64,000 bases of DNA, from positions 52,186 to 116,185 of the IMG/VR virus record IMGVR_UViG_3300009149_000014; one strand, 5' to 3'. A program made the position numbers and the translations under genes. This document shows positions 37,901-47,045 of this stretch, one piece after another. The notes under the pieces are model-generated. The model was not told the origin of the DNA, ran no database searches, and was given only the letters and a program-made list of their open reading frames with translations. This DNA is from a virus. How positions within the stretch are numbered: position 1 is the stretch's first letter; every line of letters begins with the position of its first letter.

Positions 37901-38393
37901 CGACAAGAAAATCGCCGATAAAAAAGGCAAAAAAGACGAACCAATCGAAGAAGGCCCATACGATTACACACAAGAATCTTATGACGCCGAACTCGGACTT
38001 TATTGGTATCAAAATGCATGGTATGTAGGAGATGGTCCAGTTCAATCAATGGTCGATCAACCAGCTCCTGCTGTTATCCAACAACTCGCAGCTAAATTGG
38101 GTATAACCAACCAAGTCGCCAAAGGCCAAATCGACCCTGATCAATTGATATTCGCAATCGGACTCGACATCGACTACGAAGGCGAATCTTTCCGTGGTGA
38201 CATGAGCGGACCAATCGATCAAGCCGAAGCACCATTCGATGATCGATCTGCCCGAATTACTGGTGCCAAAGTTAAATTGGATTTACCAGACGGAACCAAA
38301 AAAGAAATCCCACTAGGTCAAGATGTTGTCCGAGCACTAGCTGCTGAAATGGACGACGATCTTGGCTCCTGGGCTGCGGAGAGACAATACTAA
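34914..38393 (+). CDS. Large acidic prohead core/internal protein
   Basis: About 1160 aa between the portal and protease genes, with long Asp/Glu tracts and many xxE|S/G/A motifs. Confidence 0.65.
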   Translation: MSAYTKPQQLDVRKFIRLINSGFNTQLNEAAGCVRKAGKKVNRDWKLVALNGTELLFEDATSDQYILAKYTSKPTPKLSNITPIEIVDEGKQDEFADACKLLVEAVESEDKKAVNSAFNRMSLHRFSSRIIPESKRVRCKDGSIYELPVNENATFNAVEIGQILKEAKTHYSSGVVIQEGKIVAYNGSGNKLRIDPLLPYAVRARSLRQVAIDGHANQQFRRAVLESASLLAEGKNEESAKTIGRALQKDEEFTLLSEGQMIGVVANCLATEAIFNDKLASDLGVMAHQLNLKLNRGTIVREWRKTAKKAGSTVLLENVHRLENASNFDSALSKFLYILFEDSGGRDTKILMLRTTLEKMSNDIPGIAKDPNLNEKMQSLIGRLKNDQVDEATLFEAEDVVAAVGDELQDTETLDDFDAIGGGGDEEFDLSNMDDEAADATGDSMVQDDGKGGTTITINSPLIQIGGDSGTPDDGAEADLDGAMGNDLDVDPDALDVDLADTDEADGMGDLGGEEGQQTDPLAVGGVDDEDTFDFDLDGTDEEDEDENAQPSPFGESVQSPVHYEMKSGSEDDMPPTSFPKRGFKISESVNTYGQKLLQQGGLIDDVLSTMHSLVLAGQDNIQEAAGSALKVLKISYPKASQWQVVQEAVAAYESADMEAVAEDADDPNYQLQSGRNPVHARIVNLGEEADEESDDEEKVEEEQLRGPNTNPLGINNSDNKDPVVEWSNVGNGVSHGICENTKFILGHSALDKMELRSIDGSVTVPVPTPLCESALGSLNLADTSAKPFHKWVGQIVESIQPLTELEDDDLDDAIDQTDDDDDMLSVYSAPGDEDDYGMDDMYELKMVHTETGEEVNVAARPDGTLVPTGEETSGDDEDADDNFEGSDDDRSDDDGDDEGSEDDEDSDGGDDGSGSDSGSPVPPQFKKDSDDSDDGDDDSEDGDDDDSDDEEESGEDEEDDAGEEEDSEESDDSDDKPAFLKESKDKDGNGRPDFIDKKIADKKGKKDEPIEEGPYDYTQESYDAELGLYWYQNAWYVGDGPVQSMVDQPAPAVIQQLAAKLGITNQVAKGQIDPDQLIFAIGLDIDYEGESFRGDMSGPIDQAEAPFDDRSARITGAKVKLDLPDGTKKEIPLGQDVVRALAAEMDDDLGSWAAERQY

Positions 38394-39103
38394 TGGTCGC
38401 GTTCAATCGTAACACAATCGCCCAGACCGGAAAAATCCCGTCTGGGTGTACCATTATCCGCGATACCACATCAATGCGGGTAATCAAAAAAGAAAACGTA
38501 ATCGTCGAAGGAATCGATGGTAGAGAAGAAAAAGCTCTACGTATCGAATCCCTACTGCAACGTGGCAACGCAGTAAACGAAAACACCCGCTACTACGACA
38601 TGGACACCATCCTCACTCCAGCCGTAGAACAAATCAAAGAAGACATCTTCAGCCGAACCGTAATGGGCGAATTCGATCACCCAGACTCCCTAAAAGTCAA
38701 CCTTGATCGCGTCAGCCACCTAATGACCAACATCTGGGTAGACGGCAAAGAAGTCTACGGCACCGCCGAAATCCTACACCGTACTCCACACGGAGCCGCA
38801 CTACGCGGCCTACTTGAGCACGATGTAAAAGTCGGAATCAGCTCACGTGGAGCAGGACAACTCTCCGAAACCACAGTTGAAGGCACTCCCATCATCCTAG
38901 TGAACGAAGGATTCCGCTTCATCACCTGGGACGTGGTAGCAAAACCAAGTGTATCAGACGCAATTCTACAAATTGCAGAAAGCTTGGAATACAAATTGAA
39001 ACCAATCACACGGCAATCGCCCAAATTGGTCAAACAAATTGGACGTCAAGCATACGAACGAATCCTCGTCAAAGAAATCAATCGATTCTTCGACCTTGAT
39101 TGA
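38393..39103 (+). CDS. Prohead protease (T4 gp21-like)
   Basis: NENTRYY, MGEFDHP, RVSHL, GISSRGAG, TWDVVAKPS. Confidence 0.95.
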   Translation: MVAFNRNTIAQTGKIPSGCTIIRDTTSMRVIKKENVIVEGIDGREEKALRIESLLQRGNAVNENTRYYDMDTILTPAVEQIKEDIFSRTVMGEFDHPDSLKVNLDRVSHLMTNIWVDGKEVYGTAEILHRTPHGAALRGLLEHDVKVGISSRGAGQLSETTVEGTPIILVNEGFRFITWDVVAKPSVSDAILQIAESLEYKLKPITRQSPKLVKQIGRQAYERILVKEINRFFDLD

Positions 39104-39164
39104 AAATTACATAAGTAATCTTAAGCAAACACTATTATCAGAAGACAATCCGGGAGTTATCCAG

Positions 39165-39848
39165 ATGGCCCTTGACAAAATCAAATCCTTGCTCGCCAAA
39201 TCAGGCGTTTCGAAAGAACTCGCCACCCAAATCGTTGAGTCGATGGAAGAGTATAAAGCTACCGTGGTAGCCGAATCTCAGCAAGAGCTGGCCGCGAAAG
39301 TCAAGGCAGCTAAAACCGTAGTTCTCGAAGAAGTCGAATCGTACAAGACAGACTTGGCACGCCGAGTCCAATTGTTCTGCGAAAGCAAGAGTCAGACGAT
39401 TGAACAGCAATTGATGCGAAAATCCGCTGCAGGTGAAACTGAGGCAAAAGCCAAACTAACCAAAGTCTACGCCCTCCTAGAGGGAATCAACTTGAACGGC
39501 AAGCCAAACAGCCAACTCACAGCACAGCTCGCAGATGCTAAAAATCAACTAGGTCGTCTGGGCAAACAGCTACAAGCCACCAAAGCCCAAGCTGAGCGTT
39601 CAGCACGCATCGCAGAGAGCGTCATGGAGAAGAATCAAAAACTCATCAAGGAGAACAAAAATCTCCAAGGTGGAAAACTGATTCAAGAAGGAAAGGACAC
39701 CAAGGCAACCGCGACCGAACCAGGAATCGTAGTACCTGCCCGCAAACGAGCAGTTACAGAACAAGTCGTTACCGAAAGTGCACTAGCACCCAAAACTAAC
39801 AACACAACAACGAACCCAATCGACGCAATTGCCGCTCGAATGAGATAA
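39165..39848 (+). CDS. Prohead scaffolding protein (gp22-like)
   Basis: Coiled-coil protein between the protease and MCP; GGGAG RBS before ATG 39165. Confidence 0.8.
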   Translation: MALDKIKSLLAKSGVSKELATQIVESMEEYKATVVAESQQELAAKVKAAKTVVLEEVESYKTDLARRVQLFCESKSQTIEQQLMRKSAAGETEAKAKLTKVYALLEGINLNGKPNSQLTAQLADAKNQLGRLGKQLQATKAQAERSARIAESVMEKNQKLIKENKNLQGGKLIQEGKDTKATATEPGIVVPARKRAVTEQVVTESALAPKTNNTTTNPIDAIAARMR

Positions 39849-39909
39849 TCCAGTTATCTCAACACACGAAACCAAAACCTAAACAAACTGACTCTTAGAG
39901 GTAACAATA

Positions 39910-41460
39910 ATGTTAGCCACACCAAACCCAGCAGAACACAAAGACTACCGCGTCATCACCGAAGGAAGCCACAGCCTCGTTAAAAAGTGGGCTTCGGTCA
40001 TCAAAAAGTGCCCCGAGATTCCAAAGCACCGCCTCCCAACCTTCGCTCGCGTACTGGACAACCAGTACAAGATCATGGAAGGCCGAGGCAACGGCAACGG
40101 TTTCGGACTCATCACTGAAGATGTAACCACAACCAACAACCTGGCCGATTTCACCCGCTTCGCCCTCCCAATGATCCGCAAGAGCTACGCCAAGCTCATC
40201 AGCGACAACTTGGTCGGCGTACAGCCAATGAGCCAACCAGCCTCGTTGATCTTCTACATCCGATACCGCTACGCACTGACCAAGGGCCAAACACAAGCTG
40301 GCACCCAAATCATGCGTCAGAACACATCACAATCCTTCAGCCGCTACAACGGCTGGGCGATCGACCCATACTACTCCAGCCAGGAAGTTCGAGGTGAAGA
40401 CCTCACCATCGGCGGTGGCAGCACAGTAGTAAGCGGAACCCTGGCACACCGTCCAGTTCTCGCAGGCTCAGTAATGGTCGAAGTCTTCAGCAACGCTGCA
40501 GACGCCAACCCACAATGCGACGACGCCGTACCATGCTTGCGAATCACCTTCGACAGCAACGGCGACCCAGACGGTGTTGCAATCGGTGACTGCACCGACT
40601 TCACCACCGCAATCGCAGTCGACCTCATCACTCCAAACGCAACCGTCTTCGACCACACCAGTGGCCAAGTCACCGTTACTCTATCCTCTGGATCATTTCC
40701 AGTCGACGCAGTAGCCCGCGTTAACTACGAGTACGACCTCGAAGCCAACCCACTTCAGCCAGAAGTAACCTTGAGCATCGACAGCGACTCAGTTGCTGCC
40801 ACAACTCGCCGATTGAAGACCAGCTGGTCCCTTGAAGCAGCTCAAGACATGAAGGCAGTCTACGACATGGACGCCGAAGACACCCTCCTCAACCTCATGG
40901 CTGACGAAGTAGTTGCCGAAGTCGACCGCGAAATCCTCAACGACCTCCTGGTCGCTGCAGCAATCCGATCGACCCACAACTTCGCAACCGCAGCCGGTGC
41001 CTCCGTCAACTTCAGCGACCGAAACTTGGCCCTCATGTACAAGGTTCTTGAGATGAGTAACATCATCCACCGAACCACACTACGTGGACCAGCCAACTGG
41101 ATGGTCACCTCAGCTGACTTGAGCAGCAAGTTCGAGCAACTGAACGACTTCCGAGCATCCGACGCATTCGCCACCGAAGGCGTAAACCTCGGAATCCTCA
41201 ACGTCGGACAACTCCAAAGCCGCATGAAGCTGTACAAAGACCCATTGTTCCCCAACTGTAAAATCCTCATGGGATTCAAGGGACCAACGGCTCTCGACAC
41301 GGGGTACATCTACGCACCATATGTACCACTTCTCTCCACTCCGACCGTCATGAATCCAGATTCCTTCGTCCCATCGAAGGGAGTGATGACTAGGTATGGC
41401 AAGAAGCTTTTGGAAGATGGTGGTCTCTTCTATGCTACCCTTAACGTGACAAATCTCTAA
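39910..41460 (+). CDS. Major capsid protein (T4 gp23-like)
   Basis: LVGVQPMSQP, RRLKTSWSLEAAQD, EVDREIL, GYIYAPYVPL, KGVMTRYG; GAGGT RBS. Confidence 0.97.
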   Translation: MLATPNPAEHKDYRVITEGSHSLVKKWASVIKKCPEIPKHRLPTFARVLDNQYKIMEGRGNGNGFGLITEDVTTTNNLADFTRFALPMIRKSYAKLISDNLVGVQPMSQPASLIFYIRYRYALTKGQTQAGTQIMRQNTSQSFSRYNGWAIDPYYSSQEVRGEDLTIGGGSTVVSGTLAHRPVLAGSVMVEVFSNAADANPQCDDAVPCLRITFDSNGDPDGVAIGDCTDFTTAIAVDLITPNATVFDHTSGQVTVTLSSGSFPVDAVARVNYEYDLEANPLQPEVTLSIDSDSVAATTRRLKTSWSLEAAQDMKAVYDMDAEDTLLNLMADEVVAEVDREILNDLLVAAAIRSTHNFATAAGASVNFSDRNLALMYKVLEMSNIIHRTTLRGPANWMVTSADLSSKFEQLNDFRASDAFATEGVNLGILNVGQLQSRMKLYKDPLFPNCKILMGFKGPTALDTGYIYAPYVPLLSTPTVMNPDSFVPSKGVMTRYGKKLLEDGGLFYATLNVTNL

Positions 41461-41493
41461 ACGAGATTAACCCGTTAAAACGAAAACGATACG

Positions 41494-41525
41494 AGAAAGC
41501 CCGGTTAACGCCGGGCTTTCTTTTT
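41494..41525 (+). terminator. Intrinsic terminator after the MCP gene
   Basis: AGAAAGCCCGG / CCGGGCTTTCT stem, then a T run. Confidence 0.85.
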
Positions 41526-41560
41526 ATATATGCCATATTCATCTAATGTTATGTTTCTTG

Positions 41561-41620
41561 TTCTAAATATAACACATATCAAATCGCTCAAACATAATTT
41601 GATATGTGTTATATTTAGAA
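41561..41620. repeat. Perfect 24-bp inverted repeat with a 12-nt spacer
   Basis: TTCTAAATATAACACATATCAAAT ... ATTTGATATGTGTTATATTTAGAA. Confidence 0.95.
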
Positions 41621-41644
41621 ACAATAATCGCATGATGGAAAAAC

Positions 41645-43480
41645 ATGGCAAAATTCAATTTAACAATAGATCAATTAATATTAGAACTTGTATCAAAAAC
41701 ATCTGGCCAAATAGGTCGTGAATATGGTGTTAGTACAACAACCGTCACCAACAGAATCAAAAAGCTTGGCCTTGGTCATTTGATCACTAAGCAGAAAAAA
41801 GAGCTTGATGAAACGGCGGTGGTCGAAAGATATAAAAACGGCGAGTCGGCTCGTTCAATATCGATTGAATTGAAAGTTGACTATCGTACCATCAGAAGAA
41901 TTCTTAAGAGCCACGAAGTCACTATTATTCATCCAGGTATACGTACCTATGTTCTTAATGAAAATGTGTTTGAGTGTATCGACACTCCAGAAAAAGCTTA
42001 TTGGGTTGGGTTCTTATTAGCTGATGGACATTTATCGTCAAAGTCTGGGATACAAATATCATTAGCAAAGTATGATGATATTTTACTCAAACGATTTGCA
42101 TCATTTGTAGGATGTGATGATCCTAACTTGTGGTCAAGTCCACGACGTCACCCCAAAGCAATGTTTAATTTTCAATCAAAAAAGATGGGAAAGGATCTTA
42201 GAGATAAAGGATTTGACGATTGGAAAGATGGAACAAGTCAAGTAATACTTGACAGTATCCCGGATTACTTATTCCATCATTTCGTTCGTGGATATTTTGA
42301 CGGTGATGGTAGTATATCTTATCAACGTATTAGATTAAAGAGTGGTCTTAAAGGCCATAAAATGCATTGGACGGCATCGATTGTTTGTAAATTCGAAAAC
42401 CACCTGCGAGCAATTGGGTCTAGACTTCCAATTGCTACATGGAAAGTTAAAGAACGAACTACTATTTTTACATTGTTGTTCAGCAATAAGTCCAATGTCA
42501 GATCTTTAGGAGAGTATATCTATCAAGATGTTGAAGAATTGTTCCTTGATAGGAAAAAGGTCCGATTTGACATTTTGAATGATATGTATCCATTTTTTAT
42601 GAAAACGATTCATGATTTTTATATCCCTCGTGGTGTCGATCGTCTTTCTATAGTTGATCAATTTACAGAATGTCTCTTGAGAACTGGGTGGAAGACTAAG
42701 AGAGATTCGTTCACACCATTGTTAGAAAAGACAATTGATTCTCTAGATGCTATTATAGATGACGAGTTGAAAATCGCTTCTAACAATCCTGATAATGCAT
42801 TGTTTGAACATTGCCAACCTTGGATCAATTGGATTAAACTTGGGAATTCGACGCCAATAGCGGATTTTAGAACCAAACCGGGCAGGGTTAGAAGAGGCGT
42901 GCAGGCTTTCTTAGAAAGAGGATCTTTGAATCCTGAACGTCTTGTTAGAGAGATGAAATTTGTTGGTTTTTGTAGGGCGAGCTTGTTGAGTGCTGGTACC
43001 ATTATCAGAGCAGTTAGACACTTTAAATTGTCAGGTTCATGGTTTGACCCATGTGCAGGGTGGGGGAATAGATTGTTAGCTGCTTATTATTTGAATATTC
43101 CATATTCAGCCTGTGATCCAGGTATTTCTTTTTCTGGCCTTGAATATTTAAATGACAAATTAGACAATTTTGCCGATCTACAAAAATTGCCATGGCAAGA
43201 AGCAGCTTGGCAAAAGAGTGATTTTGTTTTGACTAGTCCGCCGTTTTATAATAAGGAAGACTATTTAGACGGCACTGAATATGGAAAGTTCGATGATTGG
43301 TGTGATGGTTTTTTGAAACCATTGACAGAGAAATCATTGAATCAATCTGAGAAAGTGTTGTTTCACACGGATGAACGGATGGCCGAATATCTAATGAAAT
43401 TAGGCGGAGTACCGCACCAATTGATTATTCCGAGCCGTTCTAAAAGTTCTAAAGAATTTTTTGTTTTGTTTGAAAGGTAA
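41645..43480 (+). CDS. HTH plus double-motif LAGLIDADG homing endonuclease fused to an amino-DNA methyltransferase
   Basis: N-terminal HTH repeats; YWVGFLLADG and FVRGYFDGDG; C-terminal motif I (FDPCAGWGNRL) and motif IV (TSPPFY). Confidence 0.8.
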   Translation: MAKFNLTIDQLILELVSKTSGQIGREYGVSTTTVTNRIKKLGLGHLITKQKKELDETAVVERYKNGESARSISIELKVDYRTIRRILKSHEVTIIHPGIRTYVLNENVFECIDTPEKAYWVGFLLADGHLSSKSGIQISLAKYDDILLKRFASFVGCDDPNLWSSPRRHPKAMFNFQSKKMGKDLRDKGFDDWKDGTSQVILDSIPDYLFHHFVRGYFDGDGSISYQRIRLKSGLKGHKMHWTASIVCKFENHLRAIGSRLPIATWKVKERTTIFTLLFSNKSNVRSLGEYIYQDVEELFLDRKKVRFDILNDMYPFFMKTIHDFYIPRGVDRLSIVDQFTECLLRTGWKTKRDSFTPLLEKTIDSLDAIIDDELKIASNNPDNALFEHCQPWINWIKLGNSTPIADFRTKPGRVRRGVQAFLERGSLNPERLVREMKFVGFCRASLLSAGTIIRAVRHFKLSGSWFDPCAGWGNRLLAAYYLNIPYSACDPGISFSGLEYLNDKLDNFADLQKLPWQEAAWQKSDFVLTSPPFYNKEDYLDGTEYGKFDDWCDGFLKPLTEKSLNQSEKVLFHTDERMAEYLMKLGGVPHQLIIPSRSKSSKEFFVLFER

Positions 43481-43674
43481 ATCTTGCGAAGCGGCATCAT
43501 TCGAATGAGTCGATCCTTGGTTTCTTTGAATCTTTTGCTCGGGAGCGTTGTAAGAGAGTTGTAAATTCTTTGCCTTCTGGTGAGGGTGTGAGTAATAAGG
43601 CTTTTGGTCAAGTGATCGTTGATAAATTGTGCGATGAGGTAGGAACTTAGCTGATTTTCTTTCATTGAATAACG

Positions 43675-43710
43675 AAGAGCCCGGTGAAGAGATTCGTCGG
43701 GCTCTTTTTG
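43675..43710 (+). terminator. Intrinsic terminator
   Basis: AAGAGCCCG / CGGGCTCTT stem with a T tail. Confidence 0.75.
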
Positions 43711-43724
43711 TGGGTGTGGAGAGA

Positions 43725-43734
43725 CAAATATAGT
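43725..43734 (+). promoter_or_regulatory. Putative late promoter CAAATATAGT
   Basis: Directly after a terminator and before the GGAG RBS and ATG 43764. Confidence 0.5.
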
Positions 43735-43763
43735 GGGTTTGGTCAATTTGTGTGGAGTTTATT

Positions 43764-45329
43764 ATGAAACTTTCTTTTATCAGTGAGTCGGATCATGGTC
43801 CAGCTTATCATAATGTTGATTCTGTTCATGATTTGTTGGGTAAGTCTCCTGCTAGATTGTTTGATTTGATTGATAAGATTACTTTGCCTCGTGATCCTAG
43901 TCGTATGGAGCGTAATCGTGGGGTTTATAGGGATGGTGTGGAGATTGATAATGATTTTTTGAGCCCTAGTGAGGCTAAGGCTTTGAAGTTGTTTTTGGGT
44001 GGGCCGACGAGGAATCAGGCTTATAGGAGTAATCCTTATAACAATGATGATGTTGGGGAGCTGTCTGGTAGCAATTTATCTGAGATTAGTCGTGCTTTGG
44101 GTGTCAATGATCCTATGGTTAGGACGTTGCTTGCTTCTGCGAAACGCAAGCTTGAGATTAATTTGCAGTCGGGCAGCAGCTTTGATGATGTTATTGGTGA
44201 GTCGGGTGAATCAGATGACACTGAGTCGGTTATTAAGGCTGCTAAGATGGTGGTTCAGATATGGAATGATTATACCAAGTTGAATAATTATGCTGAGCCT
44301 GTTGAAGATATTGATGATTATCTTGCGGATGTTGAGGATGGTGAGCCTTTGATGATACCTTTTATAGATGCTGGTTCTAAGTGGGAGGGGCTTAGTAAAC
44401 GGGGTGTAAAAGTTGGTGGTGATTTGGCTAGTGTTGTTGGTGATATTGTTGATTTTGTTAATGAATATTTCGATCTGGAGGAGTATCTTTATTATGGTTG
44501 GGAGCTTGATAGGGGTCGTGCGACGTTTAAGGTTGGTATGAATGTTGAAACTGGTGATCTAGAGGATGCTTATGATAGTGGTGTTGATTCTAGGTGGGAT
44601 CAGGAAGCAGACTCATCAGAAAAGGATTTCATGAGTGGGAGTATCACCGAAAGTGTTGAATCTCTTGATTATCGTACTTTGATTAATCAATTGGTTAATG
44701 CTGATAAAGAAACAATTCAAAAGGTTGCTGCTTCTTCTGATAGACCATTTGTACAAGCTGTTGTAGATGCTTTGTTGCCCAAATTCGATGAGGTGTCTGG
44801 GCGTTACGGTGTTAAATATTCTGATGATTTTGCTCCTTGGTATAGTGATGCGAAACATGGGCTTCACTTGGAGGCTCAGAAGTACGACGGTGAGCCTTTT
44901 ATGATTGAGTTGCATGATGCTGATGATGAGTTTGGTCGTGATGTTTATGATAAGTTGATTAAGCCGGAGCATAAGCTTGGTTCTAAGGCGATTGGTTGGG
45001 CGGCTGGTTTCGAATTTGAAGGTTATGAGACTTTGGTTGTTATTGAGATTCAGTCTGATCTTATTCGTGGTGCGTTGGCCGAACAATCTGATATTAACAG
45101 GAGGATTCTTTCTTCTTTTAGCAATTGGCAAGATGAGTTGATCCAAATGATCAGAAGGTATGCCGATCAGAAAGGGTTGGGGGTTATTAGATTTCCGACT
45201 GCTAGGAAATTAGGTCGATTTTGGCGAAGTGTCGGAGAGAAGCCTAACATGAAGTATCTTAAAGCTTTGTATGATAAGAAGTTTCGTGATGTTGCGGTTA
45301 AAAAGAATGATTGGTGGGTTTTAAAATAA
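43764..45329 (+). CDS. Multidomain probable head-internal protein: sigma region 4-like HTH, acidic domain, and EIQSD domain
   Basis: MKLSFISE|S start; LSPSEAKALKLFLG..LSEISRALGV..VRTLLASAKRKL; C-terminal LVVIEIQSD..WQDELIQMIRRYADQKG. Confidence 0.6.
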   Translation: MKLSFISESDHGPAYHNVDSVHDLLGKSPARLFDLIDKITLPRDPSRMERNRGVYRDGVEIDNDFLSPSEAKALKLFLGGPTRNQAYRSNPYNNDDVGELSGSNLSEISRALGVNDPMVRTLLASAKRKLEINLQSGSSFDDVIGESGESDDTESVIKAAKMVVQIWNDYTKLNNYAEPVEDIDDYLADVEDGEPLMIPFIDAGSKWEGLSKRGVKVGGDLASVVGDIVDFVNEYFDLEEYLYYGWELDRGRATFKVGMNVETGDLEDAYDSGVDSRWDQEADSSEKDFMSGSITESVESLDYRTLINQLVNADKETIQKVAASSDRPFVQAVVDALLPKFDEVSGRYGVKYSDDFAPWYSDAKHGLHLEAQKYDGEPFMIELHDADDEFGRDVYDKLIKPEHKLGSKAIGWAAGFEFEGYETLVVIEIQSDLIRGALAEQSDINRRILSSFSNWQDELIQMIRRYADQKGLGVIRFPTARKLGRFWRSVGEKPNMKYLKALYDKKFRDVAVKKNDWWVLK

Positions 45330-45385
45330 AGTCGTTGGGTATCCTCGGTCAGAAATGGTCAGGCTTTTTTGTAGGTGTTGAGAGC

Positions 45386-45395
45386 CAAATATAAT
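45386..45395 (+). promoter_or_regulatory. Putative late promoter CAAATATAAT
   Basis: Identical to 34855; upstream of the GAGG RBS and ATG 45423. Confidence 0.5.
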
Positions 45396-45422
45396 TGGAA
45401 CATTTTTCTATTGAGGCTCGTC

Positions 45423-46256
45423 ATGAAATTGTCGTCGATTCACTCTTCTTTTGTGGCACTCCGTATCAAATTGTTGACTGAGGGGCTTATTCTAGAAGCG
45501 GTGAGCAGTAATGATGCAAATGAGGCATATAACAAGTTCTTGAAATCTGGGGATATGAATGATTTTGGGGTATTTTATACTTATTTCATTGATCGTAAGG
45601 ATATGATCGAGAGAAGGATGAAGTTGGCTTATGGTGATTATGCTATTGAGTCGGTCGATTTGGAATCTGCGATTCAGGATACTGCTGAGTATTTCTTAAG
45701 GGCGAAAAAAGATTTTGGGCATAATGTTGCTTATTTTTGGAGACTTATTCGACTTCGTATAGTTCGTTTGATGGATAAGCACAATAAGTCTGTTAAAGGT
45801 CATGGTGATACGACTAGAGGTGACTTTCCAGGGGCTCAATTTGAGCCTGGTTCTAATGAGGATTTTCTTAATCAGTCTCCTGCTAGATTGTTTGATATTA
45901 TTGATCAGTTTATTATGGATCGTCAACCTCAGTCTCTTGAAGTTAGACGTGGTTTTTACATTCGTAATGGGCAGAAGATTAAGATTGATAATTCTTTGTT
46001 GACTCCTCGTGAGGCTAAGGCTTTGAAGTTGTCGTTGGGTGGTGTTGGTAATAATCCCAAGTATCGATCTACTCCTTATACTGGTCCGAAAGCTGATGGT
46101 GGTGTGATATCTGGTATGGCTTTTAAACAGATTGGACAGGAGCTTGGGGGTGTGTCTGGTGTGGCTGTGAAGAATATAATTGATAAGGCTAAAGAAAAAT
46201 TGGCACAACATCTTCATTCGACGGATATTAGCCAAGTCGGTGTTGCCGATTATTGA
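45423..46256 (+). CDS. Sigma70/ECF-like factor with an N-terminal propeptide
   Basis: Region 2-like (DLESAIQDTAEYFL..AYFWRLIRLRIVRLMDK) and region 4 HTH (LTPREAKALKL..GMAFKQIGQELGGVSGVAVKNIIDKAKEKL). Confidence 0.65.
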   Translation: MKLSSIHSSFVALRIKLLTEGLILEAVSSNDANEAYNKFLKSGDMNDFGVFYTYFIDRKDMIERRMKLAYGDYAIESVDLESAIQDTAEYFLRAKKDFGHNVAYFWRLIRLRIVRLMDKHNKSVKGHGDTTRGDFPGAQFEPGSNEDFLNQSPARLFDIIDQFIMDRQPQSLEVRRGFYIRNGQKIKIDNSLLTPREAKALKLSLGGVGNNPKYRSTPYTGPKADGGVISGMAFKQIGQELGGVSGVAVKNIIDKAKEKLAQHLHSTDISQVGVADY

Positions 46257-46307
46257 AACAAAAATATTCTTATAGACCAAGTGTCACGTTTTTGAAATAG
46301 GTTCTTG

Positions 46308-47045
46308 ATGTATACTATTCTTGAATATCGCATCGATTGTGCTCTTGGTTTAATATCCGAGGCCGATCGCCGTAGTTTTTTGAAAAAGATGGGTCAAATT
46401 GGTGGATCGATTGCTACTGGTGGTGGTCCTGTGGGGGTTATTGCTAAGATGGCTATGGGTGAGGTTGGTGGGTCTGATCCTTTAGCTCATATTTCTGATG
46501 ATGAAATAATCGACATGCCTGAGAAAGATTGGATCAATTTGATTCCTTCTACACGTTTATTGAAAATCCTGGCTCGTAATGATTATGATGTCGACGGAGA
46601 ATTGACAAATAAGCTTATGAAGGTCGTGATCTATGGCGTTCAGTATATGGCAAAAGATACTTCGTTGGAAATGATGAAGAAGTATCTTGAGAAGGTTGGG
46701 TATGATACGAAGCGTGGATTATTTGATGCTTTGACCAATAGCGATATTTACCATGGTGCTTATGCGGAGGCTGAAGGTAAAATGGCTGCTAATGGCATCC
46801 AAGCTTTAGAAAAAATTGGTATTAGTGTGCCCTCTAGTATTAAGAGGAAGGCTTTTGAGATAAATTCGGAGATGCGTCAAATGGAAATACAAGCTGATCA
46901 GGAGGCGATGGAAAGGGATCAGAAGAGGAAGGAGGATCTGAAGAGGAGAAAGGATCGAGACAATGATGCTAAATATAATAATGCTAAGATGCATCAGCCT
47001 TTTGAATCTAAACTTGAAAAAGCCTTATCAGCAATATTCGGATGA
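46308..47045 (+). CDS. Hypothetical probable head-internal protein with a twin-arginine-like motif
   Basis: LISE|ADRRSFLKKMG followed by a Gly-rich, weakly hydrophobic segment. Confidence 0.55.
   Translation: MYTILEYRIDCALGLISEADRRSFLKKMGQIGGSIATGGGPVGVIAKMAMGEVGGSDPLAHISDDEIIDMPEKDWINLIPSTRLLKILARNDYDVDGELTNKLMKVVIYGVQYMAKDTSLEMMKKYLEKVGYDTKRGLFDALTNSDIYHGAYAEAEGKMAANGIQALEKIGISVPSSIKRKAFEINSEMRQMEIQADQEAMERDQKRKEDLKRRKDRDNDAKYNNAKMHQPFESKLEKALSAIFG

What the first reader, a model, noticed from the sequence alone, without database searches (positions are those of the whole stretch)
41645..43480. Free-standing LAGLIDADG homing endonuclease fused to a DNA methyltransferase
One continuous 611-aa ORF holds HTH repeats, two intact LAGLIDADG motifs, and a C-terminal amino-MTase with motif I (DPCAGWG) before motif IV (SPPF). 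It is bounded by terminators and compositionally distinct from both flanks. Inference: a selfish cut-and-protect unit in which methylation confers self-immunity, or a homing element spreading an anti-restriction MTase as cargo.
Basis: partly seen in the sequence, partly recalled or inferred. Interest (0 to 1): 0.7.

Follow-up and report, generated by a model that had tools for sequence, protein, structure and literature searches.

The report
Mobile homing nuclease fused to methyltransferase
Right after the capsid gene of a large uncultured phage sits a mobile selfish gene whose single protein joins a rare-cutting LAGLIDADG DNA nuclease to a DNA-type methyltransferase. It is one of several cutter-plus-DNA-modifier fusions that replace each other at this spot, which suggests a one-protein "cut the rival, mark yourself" design.

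Summary
Window 41645-43480 (+) is one 611-aa ORF holding two HTH units, a two-motif LAGLIDADG nuclease, a helical linker and a class I amino-methyltransferase (DPCAGWG, then TSPPF). The fusion is not an assembly artefact: 36 fused homologs at 28-66% identity keep both LAGLIDADG aspartates and the MTase motifs. AlphaFold models are confident. Their best matches are I-AniI/I-OnuI-type homing endonucleases and (D/N/S)PP(Y/F) amino-MTases.

Wherever flanks are held, the gene lies directly after the gp23-type capsid gene. That slot is hypervariable. Among 67 related loci it holds LAGLIDADG+MTase (9), other nuclease/HTH+MTase (20), nuclease-like+Mom (6), LAGLIDADG+Mom (2), MTase alone (2) or unrelated genes (28).

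Two phages whose capsid proteins are 83% identical share a 98% identical fusion. The last ~155 nt of gp23, differing only at synonymous sites, travel with the cassette. This is a homing-type co-conversion signature.

DNA methylation and self-protection are inferred, not shown.

Precedent: actinophage methylases with an in-frame LAGLIDADG domain (PMC9957025). This scan has already reported the same family in at least seven other genomes. Verdict: a real, mobile new variant of a known kind.

The parts
39910..41460 (+). gp23-type major capsid protein gene. It is the conserved left flank of the cassette. In relatives its last ~155 nt co-segregate with the cassette.
   Evidence: Pfam Gp23 5e-73 and PHROG 138. 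Co-conversion was seen in L005/L130 against L124/L131.
41493..41522 (+). Intrinsic terminator of the capsid gene (13-bp stem plus T-run). Homology with the closest relative L081 ends just after it, at about 41539.
41531..41650 (+). Leader hairpin. It has a perfect 24-nt-arm palindrome (41561-41584 / 41597-41620), and its extended base pairs with the AUG at 41645. This is an inferred translational or transcriptional control element of the cassette.
   Evidence: for the inverted repeat. for the fold (dG -42.5 kcal/mol, z -7.6). Comparable hairpins lie directly before the start codon in L001, L002, L005 and L086.
41645..43480 (+). The 611-aa fusion ORF: HTH-HTH, LAGLIDADG nuclease, helical linker, amino-MTase.
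   Evidence: The full-length AF2 model has pLDDT 89.8 and pTM 0.78.
41666..41911 (+). Two helix-turn-helix units (res 8-40 and 56-89). The first is specific to the window's subfamily (P0004-P0006).
41963..42544 (+). Monomeric double-motif LAGLIDADG nuclease core (res 107-300). The catalytic aspartates D127 and D221 are invariant in 36/36 aligned sequences.
   Evidence: Foldseek top hits are I-AniI, I-OnuI, I-SmaMI and I-LtrI.
42575..42934 (+). Helical subdomain (res 311-430) that travels with the MTase core in stand-alone relatives. It is a candidate target-recognition or linker domain.
   Evidence: AF2 model. Stand-alone relatives P0041 and the L156 ORF cover it.
42935..43477 (+). Class I Rossmann amino-MTase core (res 431-611): motif I 43040-43072, motif II acidic residue 43109-43123, motif IV TSPPF 43232-43246.
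   Evidence: invariant motifs; pLDDT 94.3; Trm11 Z 15.4, METTL16, METTL5, PrmC; viral 'N4-cytosine DNA MTase family' clusters.
43674..43712 (+). Downstream intrinsic terminator (15-bp stem, 4-nt loop, TTTTT). It closes the transcription unit ~195 nt after the stop codon.

Best explanation
This is a free-standing homing-endonuclease cassette lodged directly 3' of the major capsid gene of an uncultured large gp23-type phage.

Its single protein has three working parts. Two HTH units plus the LAGLIDADG saddle target DNA. A two-aspartate LAGLIDADG active site cuts DNA. A C-terminal methyltransferase unit, of a kind that also exists as a stand-alone protein, most likely methylates an exocyclic amino group in DNA. 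The invariant TSPPF motif favours N4-cytosine, with N6-adenine as the alternative.

Inferred mechanism: in a mixed infection the nuclease cuts a cassette-less relative in or next to the 3' end of its capsid gene. Recombinational repair from the cassette-bearing genome then copies in the cassette together with ~150 nt of gp23. The methyltransferase is the 'modify' half of a cutter-plus-modifier design. It marks the carrier's own DNA, so that the element, and possibly the whole phage, is spared from cleavage.

Shown here: the fusion is real and old. Both catalytic motif sets are conserved. The position is fixed. The slot turns over. At least one recent transfer carried a co-converted gp23 tract.

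Inferred only: nuclease activity and its target, a DNA substrate for the MTase, and protection by methylation.
For: (1) Real, conserved fusion. 36 fused homologs of 560-630 aa at 28-66% identity have invariant D127, D219/D221, WxDPCAGWGxR, D491-P492, TSPPF and H574/D576.

(2) Folds. The full-length model (pLDDT 89.8, pTM 0.78) best matches the monomeric LAGLIDADG enzymes I-AniI, I-OnuI, I-SmaMI and I-LtrI. The C-domain model (pLDDT 94.3) matches amino-MTases of the (D/N/S)PP(Y/F) group, with Z up to 15.4.

(3) Position. In all ten distinct contigs with flanks, the window included, the fusion lies directly after gp23: the window, L001, L002, L152 (sequence-identical to L002, from another metagenome), L003, L004, L005, L086, L130 and L161.

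(4) Mobility.
- The 9 LAGLIDADG+MTase rows need 8 changes on the capsid tree.
- L005 and L130 have 83% identical capsid proteins but a 98% identical fusion.
- Each has a near-identical backbone partner without the fusion (L124, L131). The partners carry a different 1.3-kb segment in its place.
- The last ~155 nt of gp23 follow the cassette, not the backbone. The ~20 differences there are all synonymous.
- The window's closest relative L081 (93% capsid identity) loses homology right after the capsid terminator. At that slot it carries a different HTH+MTase gene that is only 30% identical over the MTase core.

(5) Cutter-plus-modifier logic. The same slot holds LAGLIDADG+Mom (L116 and L172, Mom 1e-24), TnsA-like nuclease+MTase (L087, L107, P0058) and nuclease-like+Mom (L088, L096, L122, L118, L129). 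Mom is a DNA base-modifying enzyme family by established knowledge.

(6) DNA-type MTase. Distant ~320-aa relatives pass Pfam's N6_N4_Mtase threshold at motif IV. The protein-atlas neighbours are viral clusters named N4-cytosine DNA MTase family. Twort-like Staphylococcus phage relatives are annotated as DNA methyltransferase.

(7) The N-domain's relatives are intron-encoded and free-standing phage LAGLIDADG endonucleases. No intron was detected here.
Against: - No biochemical or methylome data exist for any member.
- The nearest solved structures of the MTase domain are RNA or protein amino-MTases (Trm11, Trm14/TrmN, RsmC, METTL5/16, PrmC). They are not DNA MTases.
- The domain itself is far below Pfam's N6_N4_Mtase cut-off (13.3 bits against 26.7).
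- In the resolved allele pair, HE+ and HE- genomes differ at synonymous sites in the gp23 3' end. That is the classical methylation-independent way for a free-standing homing endonuclease to spare its own genome. L126 carries the HE+-type gp23 tract without the fusion.
- An MTase-only form occurs at the slot (L156). So do Mom-type fusions that lack the MTase, so the MTase is not obligatory for a nuclease at this site.
- For the window's own copy, the evidence of mobility is only slot replacement relative to L081. No empty-site allele or near-identical copy was found.
Confidence: 0.6

Rival explanations
1. Cargo model. The nuclease part is an ordinary homing endonuclease that gives mobility. 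The MTase (or Mom, in sister fusions) is a beneficial anti-host-restriction module fused to it. Selection on the phage then keeps the selfish gene alive. Methylation has nothing to do with the nuclease's own target.
For: Orphan phage MTases and Mom are classical anti-restriction functions (established knowledge, discussed in PMC9957025). The MTase unit also exists alone, at the same slot in L156 and as P0041/P0042 elsewhere. Synonymous target-region polymorphism could already explain self-immunity. Mom-type modification is broad, not confined to one long site.
Against: Cargo genes are normally separate ORFs. Here the modifier is in-frame with a nuclease in at least four independent nuclease x modifier combinations. 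That points to a functional link, not mere linkage. The pTM of 0.78 for the whole chain suggests a defined inter-domain arrangement.
Confidence: 0.25
2. Phage-encoded single-chain restriction-modification enzyme (Type IIG/IIC-like). The nuclease attacks unmodified host or rival-phage DNA at many sites while the phage's own DNA is methylated. This would be exclusion, not homing.
For: Nuclease and MTase sit in one polypeptide, as in MmeI, TstI and LlaGI (PMC2731913, PMC4027205, PMC2790903). A XamI-type restriction endonuclease occupies the same slot in L083. PD-(D/E)XK-like versions exist.
Against: LAGLIDADG enzymes recognise long, rare sites and have not been described in R-M systems (PMC9957025 discussion; no mention in the Type II review PMC4081073). 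The co-conversion tract at gp23 indicates site-specific homing. No TRD of the Type IIG kind was recognised.
Confidence: 0.07
3. Domesticated targeting module. The LAGLIDADG and HTH part no longer cuts. It only delivers the MTase to one locus, or acts as a regulator on the palindrome upstream of its own gene.
For: LAGLIDADG scaffolds have been recruited as non-cutting DNA or RNA binders, such as WhiA and maturases (established knowledge; bI3 maturase is among the fold hits). Long perfect palindromes precede the gene in five loci. An earlier scan note reports one relative with a dead nuclease site (e1-5778295, not checked here).
Against: Both catalytic aspartates are invariant in 36/36 sequences across 28-66% identity. 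The patchy distribution and a recent transfer with co-conversion fit an active nuclease.
Confidence: 0.04
4. The C-terminal domain is an RNA (tRNA/rRNA m2G or m6A) or protein methyltransferase that happens to be fused to a homing endonuclease.
For: The best structural matches are Trm11, Trm14/TrmN, RsmC, METTL5, METTL16 and PrmC. A GIY-YIG nuclease fused to a COG4123 N-MTase is a known precedent whose substrate is unclear (PMC1564403).
Against: Sequence relatives reach DNA methylase models only. The domain is interchangeable at this slot with Mom, a DNA modifier, and always comes with DNA-binding HTH and nuclease modules. The PDB holds few DNA MTases with this motif order, so the fold ranking is biased.
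Confidence: 0.04

Closest known systems
Free-standing homing endonucleases of T4-like phages (Seg and Mob proteins; 'intronless homing', reviewed in PMC2988022), and the tendency of such genes to sit next to capsid and other essential genes (PMC10448857)
   Same: It is an own ORF in an intergenic slot beside an essential conserved gene. It combines DNA-binding modules with a nuclease. Its distribution among relatives is patchy. The adjacent gene's end is co-converted. A strong hairpin lies before the start codon.
   Different: The nuclease is LAGLIDADG, not GIY-YIG or HNH. A complete methyltransferase (or Mom, in sister genes) is fused in frame. The host phages are an uncultured clade whose capsid protein is at most 38% identical to any phage in the 'phages' collection.
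Actinophage (cluster F, e.g. Taj_79) DNA methylases carrying an in-frame, non-intein LAGLIDADG endonuclease domain (Gosselin et al. 2023, PMC9957025)
   Same: A LAGLIDADG domain and a phage DNA methylase are in one polypeptide. The authors raise the same two readings, a selfish element or a one-peptide R-M enzyme.
   Different: The methylase family is different: tblastn of the C-domain finds no actinophage. There the endonuclease is inserted within the methylase, and no strong evidence of transfer was found. Here it is N-terminal with HTH units, is fixed at the capsid-gene slot, shows a recent transfer with co-conversion, and belongs to a nuclease x modifier combinatorial set.
Monomeric double-motif LAGLIDADG homing endonucleases (I-AniI, I-OnuI, I-SmaMI, I-LtrI), and phage intron-encoded relatives of PHROG 4645 (Staphylococcus Twort-like phages, Bacillus phage 0305phi8-36)
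   Same: Two LAGLIDADG helices, each with a catalytic acidic residue, and a duplicated alpha-beta-beta-alpha-beta-beta-alpha fold.
   Different: Those enzymes are intron- or intein-encoded or stand alone at about 250-300 aa. None carries a methyltransferase domain.
Single-chain restriction-modification enzymes (Type IIG/IIC MmeI, Type IIB TstI/BcgI, Type ISP LlaGI)
   Same: Cleavage and methylation functions are in one protein.
   Different: Those use PD-(D/E)XK or Mrr nucleases, gamma-class N6-adenine MTases with a defined TRD, and short sites. They are cellular defence genes, not mobile phage cassettes.
Stand-alone viral amino-MTases of the same family (about 270-340 aa; annotated 'DNA methyltransferase' in Staphylococcus phages Alsa_1-4; atlas clusters named N4-cytosine DNA MTase family)
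   Same: Helical subdomain plus Rossmann core, with motif I before motif IV (S/T-S-P-P-F/Y).
   Different: They have no nuclease or HTH part. In Twort-like phages the gene lies in the replication module, not by the capsid gene. None is experimentally characterised, as far as I could find.

Membership tests
LAGLIDADG homing endonucleases (monomeric, double-motif) | Two LAGLIDADG helices, each ending in a catalytic Asp/Glu | tested here: met
   AYWVGFLLADG (D127) and VRGYFDGDG (D221) are invariant in 36/36 aligned homologs.
LAGLIDADG homing endonucleases (monomeric, double-motif) | Family profile match above the curated threshold | tested here: met
   Pfam LAGLIDADG_3 scores 26.6 bits against a cut-off of 22.5. 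PHROG 4645 endonuclease gives 1.8e-45.
LAGLIDADG homing endonucleases (monomeric, double-motif) | Duplicated alpha-beta-beta-alpha-beta-beta-alpha fold forming a DNA saddle | tested here: met
   AF2 secondary structure for res 115-292. Foldseek top 50 are I-AniI, I-OnuI, I-SmaMI, I-LtrI and the like, at probability 1.00.
LAGLIDADG homing endonucleases (monomeric, double-motif) | Site-specific double-strand cleavage of a long target | not testable with these tools
   Needs a cleavage assay.
Free-standing homing endonuclease genes (intronless homing) | Not inside an intron or intein; own expression unit between conserved genes | tested here: met
   No Rfam intron in 39000-47000. No Hint/intein family hit. 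The nuclease part has no N-extein. A terminator lies before and after the unit.
Free-standing homing endonuclease genes (intronless homing) | Presence/absence polymorphism among close relatives, with co-conversion of flanking markers | tested here: met
   Met in relatives: L005/L130 against L124/L131 (without). The fusion is 98% identical across capsid proteins that are 83% identical, and a ~155-nt gp23 tract follows the cassette. For the window itself only slot replacement against L081 is seen.
DNA amino-methyltransferases (N6-adenine / N4-cytosine; Pfam N6_N4_Mtase PF01555) | SAM-binding motif I and catalytic motif IV (S/D/N)PP(Y/F) | tested here: met
   WFDPCAGWGNR and TSPPF are invariant in the family.
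DNA amino-methyltransferases (N6-adenine / N4-cytosine; Pfam N6_N4_Mtase PF01555) | Class I Rossmann MTase fold | tested here: met
   Model pLDDT 94.3. VIA-align gives Z 15.4 (Trm11, 172 residues aligned, rmsd 3.2) and many others above 12. Foldseek finds METTL16, Trm11, METTL5 and HemK.
DNA amino-methyltransferases (N6-adenine / N4-cytosine; Pfam N6_N4_Mtase PF01555) | Profile match above Pfam's gathering score | tested here: not met
   13.3 bits against 26.7, at motif IV only. No NCBIfam hit. Only more distant ~320-aa relatives pass, and only over motif IV. It therefore works like an amino-MTase but is not a member of PF01555 as modelled. PF01555 also has motif IV before motif I; here the order is I then IV.
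DNA amino-methyltransferases (N6-adenine / N4-cytosine; Pfam N6_N4_Mtase PF01555) | DNA (not RNA or protein) as methyl acceptor | not testable with these tools
   Context favours DNA: HTH plus nuclease partners, interchange with Mom, and names of relatives. The fold neighbours are RNA MTases.
Single-chain R-M enzymes (Type IIG/IIC/IIB) | PD-(D/E)XK-type nuclease plus gamma-class N6A MTase plus a TRD that sets a short site | tested here: not met
   The nuclease is LAGLIDADG. No TRD or Eco57I/N6_Mtase family hit was found for this protein.
Inteins with LAGLIDADG domains | Hint splicing blocks flanking the endonuclease inside a host protein | tested here: not met
   No intein/Hint family in the Pfam scan at E<=1. 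The endonuclease part is N-terminal, preceded only by HTH units.

The most novel reading that the evidence does not exclude
The gp23-downstream slot of this uncultured phage clade hosts a new class of one-protein 'homing restriction-modification' elements. Interchangeable nucleases (LAGLIDADG or PD-(D/E)XK-like) are fused to interchangeable DNA modifiers (amino-MTase or Mom). The modifier marks the carrier's copy of the nuclease's target, so the element can attack a sequence that the capsid gene cannot mutate away from. This would be the first use of a LAGLIDADG nuclease in a modification-controlled cutting system.
Probability: 0.3. Interest if true: 0.85.

Novelty: new variant of a known kind. 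Interest (0 to 1): 0.68.

Why it matters
Homing endonucleases normally spare their own genome because their insertion or nearby polymorphisms destroy the target. Restriction enzymes spare it by methylation. A conserved, mobile family that welds a homing nuclease to a DNA modifier would bridge these two strategies, and it recurs with two nuclease folds and two modifier folds at a single hotspot. It would give a testable case for how R-M-like logic can arise from selfish homing genes, or the reverse.

There are practical points too. LAGLIDADG enzymes are genome-engineering scaffolds, so a natural version coupled to a site-directed methyltransferase is of interest. The MTase family itself is widespread in viruses (611 hits at E<=0.001 among 1.8 billion cluster representatives) and is almost invisible to Pfam.

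The scan has now met this family in several genomes.

Tried and rejected
- Assembly chimera: rejected, given 36 independent fused homologs and identical composition of the two halves (GC 36.3% and 37.7%).
- Intron- or intein-encoded: rejected.
- Close DNA relatives: megablast against phages found nothing. A close-relative scan of JGI metagenome contigs also found nothing. Only L161 added a clear capsid-adjacent fusion.
- Further copies in the same 116-kb record: none.
- Sequence or profile search of PDB chains for the MTase part: nothing significant. The best hit was a DNA N4-cytosine MTase at E 0.79.
- PADLOC: only an HTH-level hit for this protein.
- Clade-wide nucleotide signature in the gp23 3' end shared by all fusion carriers: none seen by eye. 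The window versus L081 shows no special drop in identity at the 3' end.
- Co-conversion among other fusion-bearing pairs: only L005/L130 shows it.
- No complex-prediction job was sent. The protein has both LAGLIDADG motifs in one chain, and no binding claim is made.
Full report
**1. What is in the sequence**

Window 41645-43480 (+) is a single 611-aa ORF with an ATG start and no internal stop. It has five parts.
- Two helix-turn-helix units, residues 8-40 and 56-89. Support: Pfam HTH_23 4.7e-5, NCBIfam Cbp1-type tandem HTH 5e-8, and helices in the AlphaFold model.
- A LAGLIDADG nuclease core, about res 107-300, with motif 1 AYWVGFLLADG (res 118-128) and motif 2 VRGYFDGDG (res 214-222). Pfam LAGLIDADG_3 scores 26.6 bits against a cut-off of 22.5. 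PHROG 4645 'endonuclease' gives 1.8e-45 over res 18-309.
- A helical subdomain, res 311-430.
- A Rossmann methyltransferase core, res 431-611. Motif I WFDPCAGWGNR (466-476) precedes motif IV TSPPF (530-534).

The upstream neighbours are a prohead protease (38393-39103) and a gp23-type major capsid protein (39910-41460; Pfam Gp23 5e-73).

A strong terminator follows the capsid gene (41493-41522). A second terminator-like hairpin with a T-run lies at 43674-43712, ~195 nt past the stop codon (dG -26.5 kcal/mol, z -4.5).

The ORF has GC 37.0% (GC3 30.6%). The capsid gene has 54.4%, the 116-kb record 43.1%, and the next two ORFs 40-41%. The ORF's two halves have the same composition, 36.3% and 37.7%.

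Two details need softening: the downstream terminator is not adjacent to the ORF, and the compositional contrast with the right flank is small.

**2. The fusion is real and old**

I searched 5.8 billion proteins with the C-terminal 301 residues. This returned 37 proteins of 561-629 aa with the same architecture, at E-values of 1e-132 to 4e-34, from JGI, ENA, NCBI and Logan assemblies.

In an alignment of 36 of them (28-66% identical to the window's protein) the following are invariant:
- the LAGLIDADG residues A118, Y119, W120, G122, A126, D127 and R215, G216, D219, G220, D221, G222;
- the MTase residues W466, D468, P469, C470, A471, G472, W473, G474, R476, P492, T530, S531, P533, F534, K537, E538, Y540, H574 and D576.

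This is not an assembly error, and neither domain is dead across homologs.

**3. Folds**

The C-terminal 301 residues fold with pLDDT 94.3 and pTM 0.90.
- Foldseek against the PDB puts METTL16, Trm11, METTL5, HemK/PrmC and RlmL at the top.
- The Foldseek-independent VIA-align search gives Trm11 (Z 15.4, 172 residues, rmsd 3.2), Trm14/TrmN (Z 15.2), RsmC, METTL5 and PrmC.

These are all class I amino-group methyltransferases with a (D/N)PP(Y/F) motif. The best matches act on RNA or protein, so the fold does not settle the substrate.

The full-length model has pLDDT 89.8 and pTM 0.78. Its best PDB matches are the monomeric LAGLIDADG homing endonucleases I-AniI, I-OnuI, I-SmaMI, I-LtrI and relatives.

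**4. What the MTase domain is related to**

An exhaustive phmmer search of 1.84 billion cluster representatives gave 611 hits. They fall into three groups.
- The fused family.
- Stand-alone proteins of 227-355 aa (P0041, P0042, P0050, P0053).
- Other fusions of 600-730 aa in which the same domain follows HTH units plus a TnsA-like endonuclease (P0058), or a GmrSD_N domain (P0082).

The window's own domain misses Pfam's N6_N4_Mtase threshold (13.3 bits against 26.7) and has no NCBIfam hit. More distant ~320-aa relatives pass the Pfam threshold, but only across the motif IV region.

Protein-language-model neighbours are viral clusters of 270-305 aa. Some are auto-named 'cytosine-N4-specific DNA methyltransferase family' (score 0.98).

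In cultured phages the only relatives are ~328-aa proteins of Twort-like Staphylococcus and Mammaliicoccus phages. These are annotated 'DNA methyltransferase' or hypothetical and lie in the replication module.

By established motif rules, S-P-P-(Y/F) is typical of N4-cytosine MTases. I take that as a lean, not a result.

**5. Genomic setting and the phage**

The window belongs to a 116,185-bp IMG/VR record that CheckV rates about 32% complete. Its capsid protein is at most 38% identical to any phage in the 'phages' collection. The best hit is a 595-kb uncultured 'huge phage'.

IMG/VR holds many relatives at 64-93% capsid identity on contigs of up to 408 kb. So this is an uncultured clade of large gp23-type phages.

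The fusion lies immediately downstream of the capsid gene in every contig where flanks are held: the window, L001, L002 and its sequence-identical twin L152 (a different metagenome), L003, L004, L005, L086, L130 and L161. The record holds only one copy. No intron model matches the region.

**6. The slot is a hotspot for cutter-plus-modifier fusions**

I classified the first gene after gp23 in 67 capsid-related loci with enough flank.

| Occupant | Loci |
|---|---|
| LAGLIDADG+MTase | 9 |
| Other N-terminal part+MTase | 20 |
| Other N-terminal part+Mom | 6 |
| LAGLIDADG+Mom | 2 |
| MTase alone | 2 |
| Unrelated genes | 28 |

The unrelated genes include a XamI-type restriction endonuclease in L083 and a Stealth-family protein in L085.

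Pfam assignments behind the classes:
- TnsA-like endonuclease N-domain in L087 and L107 (9.5e-5 and 8.7e-6).
- Mom family at 1e-17 to 1e-24 in L088, L096, L122, L118, L129, L116 and L172. Weak REase_MTES_1575, RE_endonuc or 'HEase' matches lie in the middle of the non-LAGLIDADG ones.
- LAGLIDADG_3 together with Mom in L116 and L172.

So two nuclease types and two DNA-modifier types occur in all four combinations, each behind HTH units, at one genomic position. Mom is a DNA base-modifying enzyme family. Its interchange with the MTase is my main indirect argument that the MTase also works on DNA and that nuclease and modifier are functionally coupled.

**7. Evidence of mobility**

On a capsid-protein tree of 82 rows, the 9 LAGLIDADG+MTase rows (8 distinct capsid sequences) need 8 changes. 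Every independent occurrence stands alone. All six states together need 22 changes, against 33.3 +/- 1.8 for shuffled labels.

The window's nearest relative L081 has 93% capsid protein identity and ~80-90% nucleotide identity along gp23. It loses all similarity just after the capsid terminator, at about window 41539. It carries there a 632-aa HTH+MTase gene whose MTase core is only 30% identical to the window's.

The clearest case is in relatives.
- L005 and L130 have capsid proteins 83% identical but fusion proteins 98% identical.
- Each has a backbone partner without the fusion. L124 is 95.6% identical to L005 over 6.5 kb up to the gp23 stop. L131 is 97.5% identical to L130.
- In the partners, L005's segment 6763-8716 is replaced by an unrelated 1.3-kb segment with 230-aa and 187-aa ORFs. 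Homology resumes ~25 nt after the fusion's stop codon.
- Along gp23, each carrier matches its own backbone partner at 97-100% until ~155 nt before the stop. From there the two carriers match each other (97-98%) and the two non-carriers match each other (97-100%). Carrier against non-carrier drops to 82-92%.
- The ~20 differences in that tract are all synonymous. The last 60 residues are identical in all four.

This is the pattern expected when a cassette spreads by double-strand-break repair with co-conversion of the adjacent gene end. It places the exchange point, and plausibly the cleavage site, in or next to the last ~150 nt of gp23.

It also shows that carriers and non-carriers differ in sequence there. 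That could by itself give immunity without methylation. One non-carrier (L126) has the carrier-type tract. Other fusion-bearing pairs show no such recent exchange.

**8. A conserved leader hairpin**

Between the capsid terminator and the start codon lies a perfect palindrome with 24-nt arms (41561-41584 / 41597-41620). As RNA, 41525-41665 folds at -42.5 kcal/mol (z -7.6), and the base of the stem pairs with the AUG.

Unrelated but equally strong hairpins end 1-15 nt before the start codon in L001, L005 and L086, and span the annotated start in L002 (dG -23 to -38 kcal/mol).

T4 homing-endonuclease genes are known to be held silent by such hairpins until late transcription (established knowledge; review PMC2988022). 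I take this as a likely expression brake. Another first-stage note read the palindrome as a possible origin or operator (e1-6037917). Its recurrence at the 5' edge of the cassette in other phages fits a cassette-borne element better.

**9. Mechanism and rivals**

Most likely (0.6): a mobile free-standing LAGLIDADG homing cassette whose fused MTase is the 'modify' half of a cutter-plus-modifier design.

Main rival (0.25): the MTase is anti-restriction cargo with no link to the nuclease's target. The synonymous polymorphism and the stand-alone MTase forms speak for this. The four independent in-frame nuclease x modifier combinations speak against it.

Less likely rivals:
- A many-site single-chain R-M or exclusion enzyme (0.07).
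- A non-cutting targeting or regulatory module (0.04).
- An RNA or protein MTase (0.04).

None can be settled without a methylome and a cleavage assay.

**10. What is known, and novelty**

Type II restriction enzymes are described as PD-(D/E)XK, HNH or GIY-YIG for the most part. The 2014 review never mentions LAGLIDADG (PMC4081073).

Gosselin et al. 2023 (PMC9957025) found nine cluster F actinophage methylases (e.g. Taj_79) with an in-frame, non-intein LAGLIDADG domain. They discussed the same two readings. [quoted passage not shown] That is a true precedent for the pairing, in an unrelated methylase family (one search finds no actinophage hit).

GIY-YIG nuclease + N-MTase fusions in Lactobacillales were noted in 2006 (PMC1564403). 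Barth et al. 2023 showed that homing endonuclease genes cluster by capsid and other essential genes (PMC10448857).

My full-text searches found no paper on this family, or on nuclease+Mom fusions.

Within this scan the same family has already been reported from at least seven other genomes, with the same general reading. So this window is a further member, not a first sighting. I class it as a new variant of a known kind.

**11. Limits**

All functional statements about cleavage, methylation and protection are inferences from sequence, predicted structure and comparative context.

Noticed in passing
window 43752-45329 and 45375-46256: The two ORFs after the cassette (525 aa and 293 aa) share a 123-residue module that is 46% identical (E 3e-25). 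It sits at the N-terminus of the first and the C-terminus of the second, with a weak sigma-70 region 4-like HTH. Neither ORF has a Pfam, PHROG or PADLOC family. They may be further modular DNA-binding genes of the same variable region.
   Followed up: partly
L083:6592-7371; L085:7248-8213: In related phages the same post-capsid slot holds a XamI-type restriction endonuclease (Pfam RE_XamI 1.6e-28) or a Stealth CR2 protein (4e-32). The slot therefore collects DNA-attack and modification genes in general.
   Followed up: no
L116:6684-8114; L172:3794-5233: These are HTH + LAGLIDADG + Mom-family fusions (Mom 1e-24) directly after gp23. My full-text searches on related terms turned up no paper describing this pairing.
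   Followed up: partly
L001:8715-10925; L161:5844-7685: Some phages carry two modifier fusions in tandem after gp23: a LAGLIDADG+MTase gene followed at once by a second HTH+unknown+MTase gene of 614-737 aa.
   Followed up: no
L004:5311-6805: The capsid gene of this 170-kb contig is split into two overlapping ORFs (303 and 207 aa) just upstream of its fusion gene. This is either a frameshift or an assembly error, and it was not resolved.
   Followed up: no
window 39910-41460 vs flanks: The capsid gene has GC 54% (GC3 65%) in a 43% GC genome. GC skew is strongly negative upstream of about 41.4 kb and strongly positive downstream. The switch coincides with the left edge of the cassette.
   Followed up: no
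L126 (gp23 3' end): This is a non-carrier allele with the carrier-type synonymous variant of the last ~155 nt of gp23. It may be a recombinant, or a 'resistant empty site'.
   Followed up: partly
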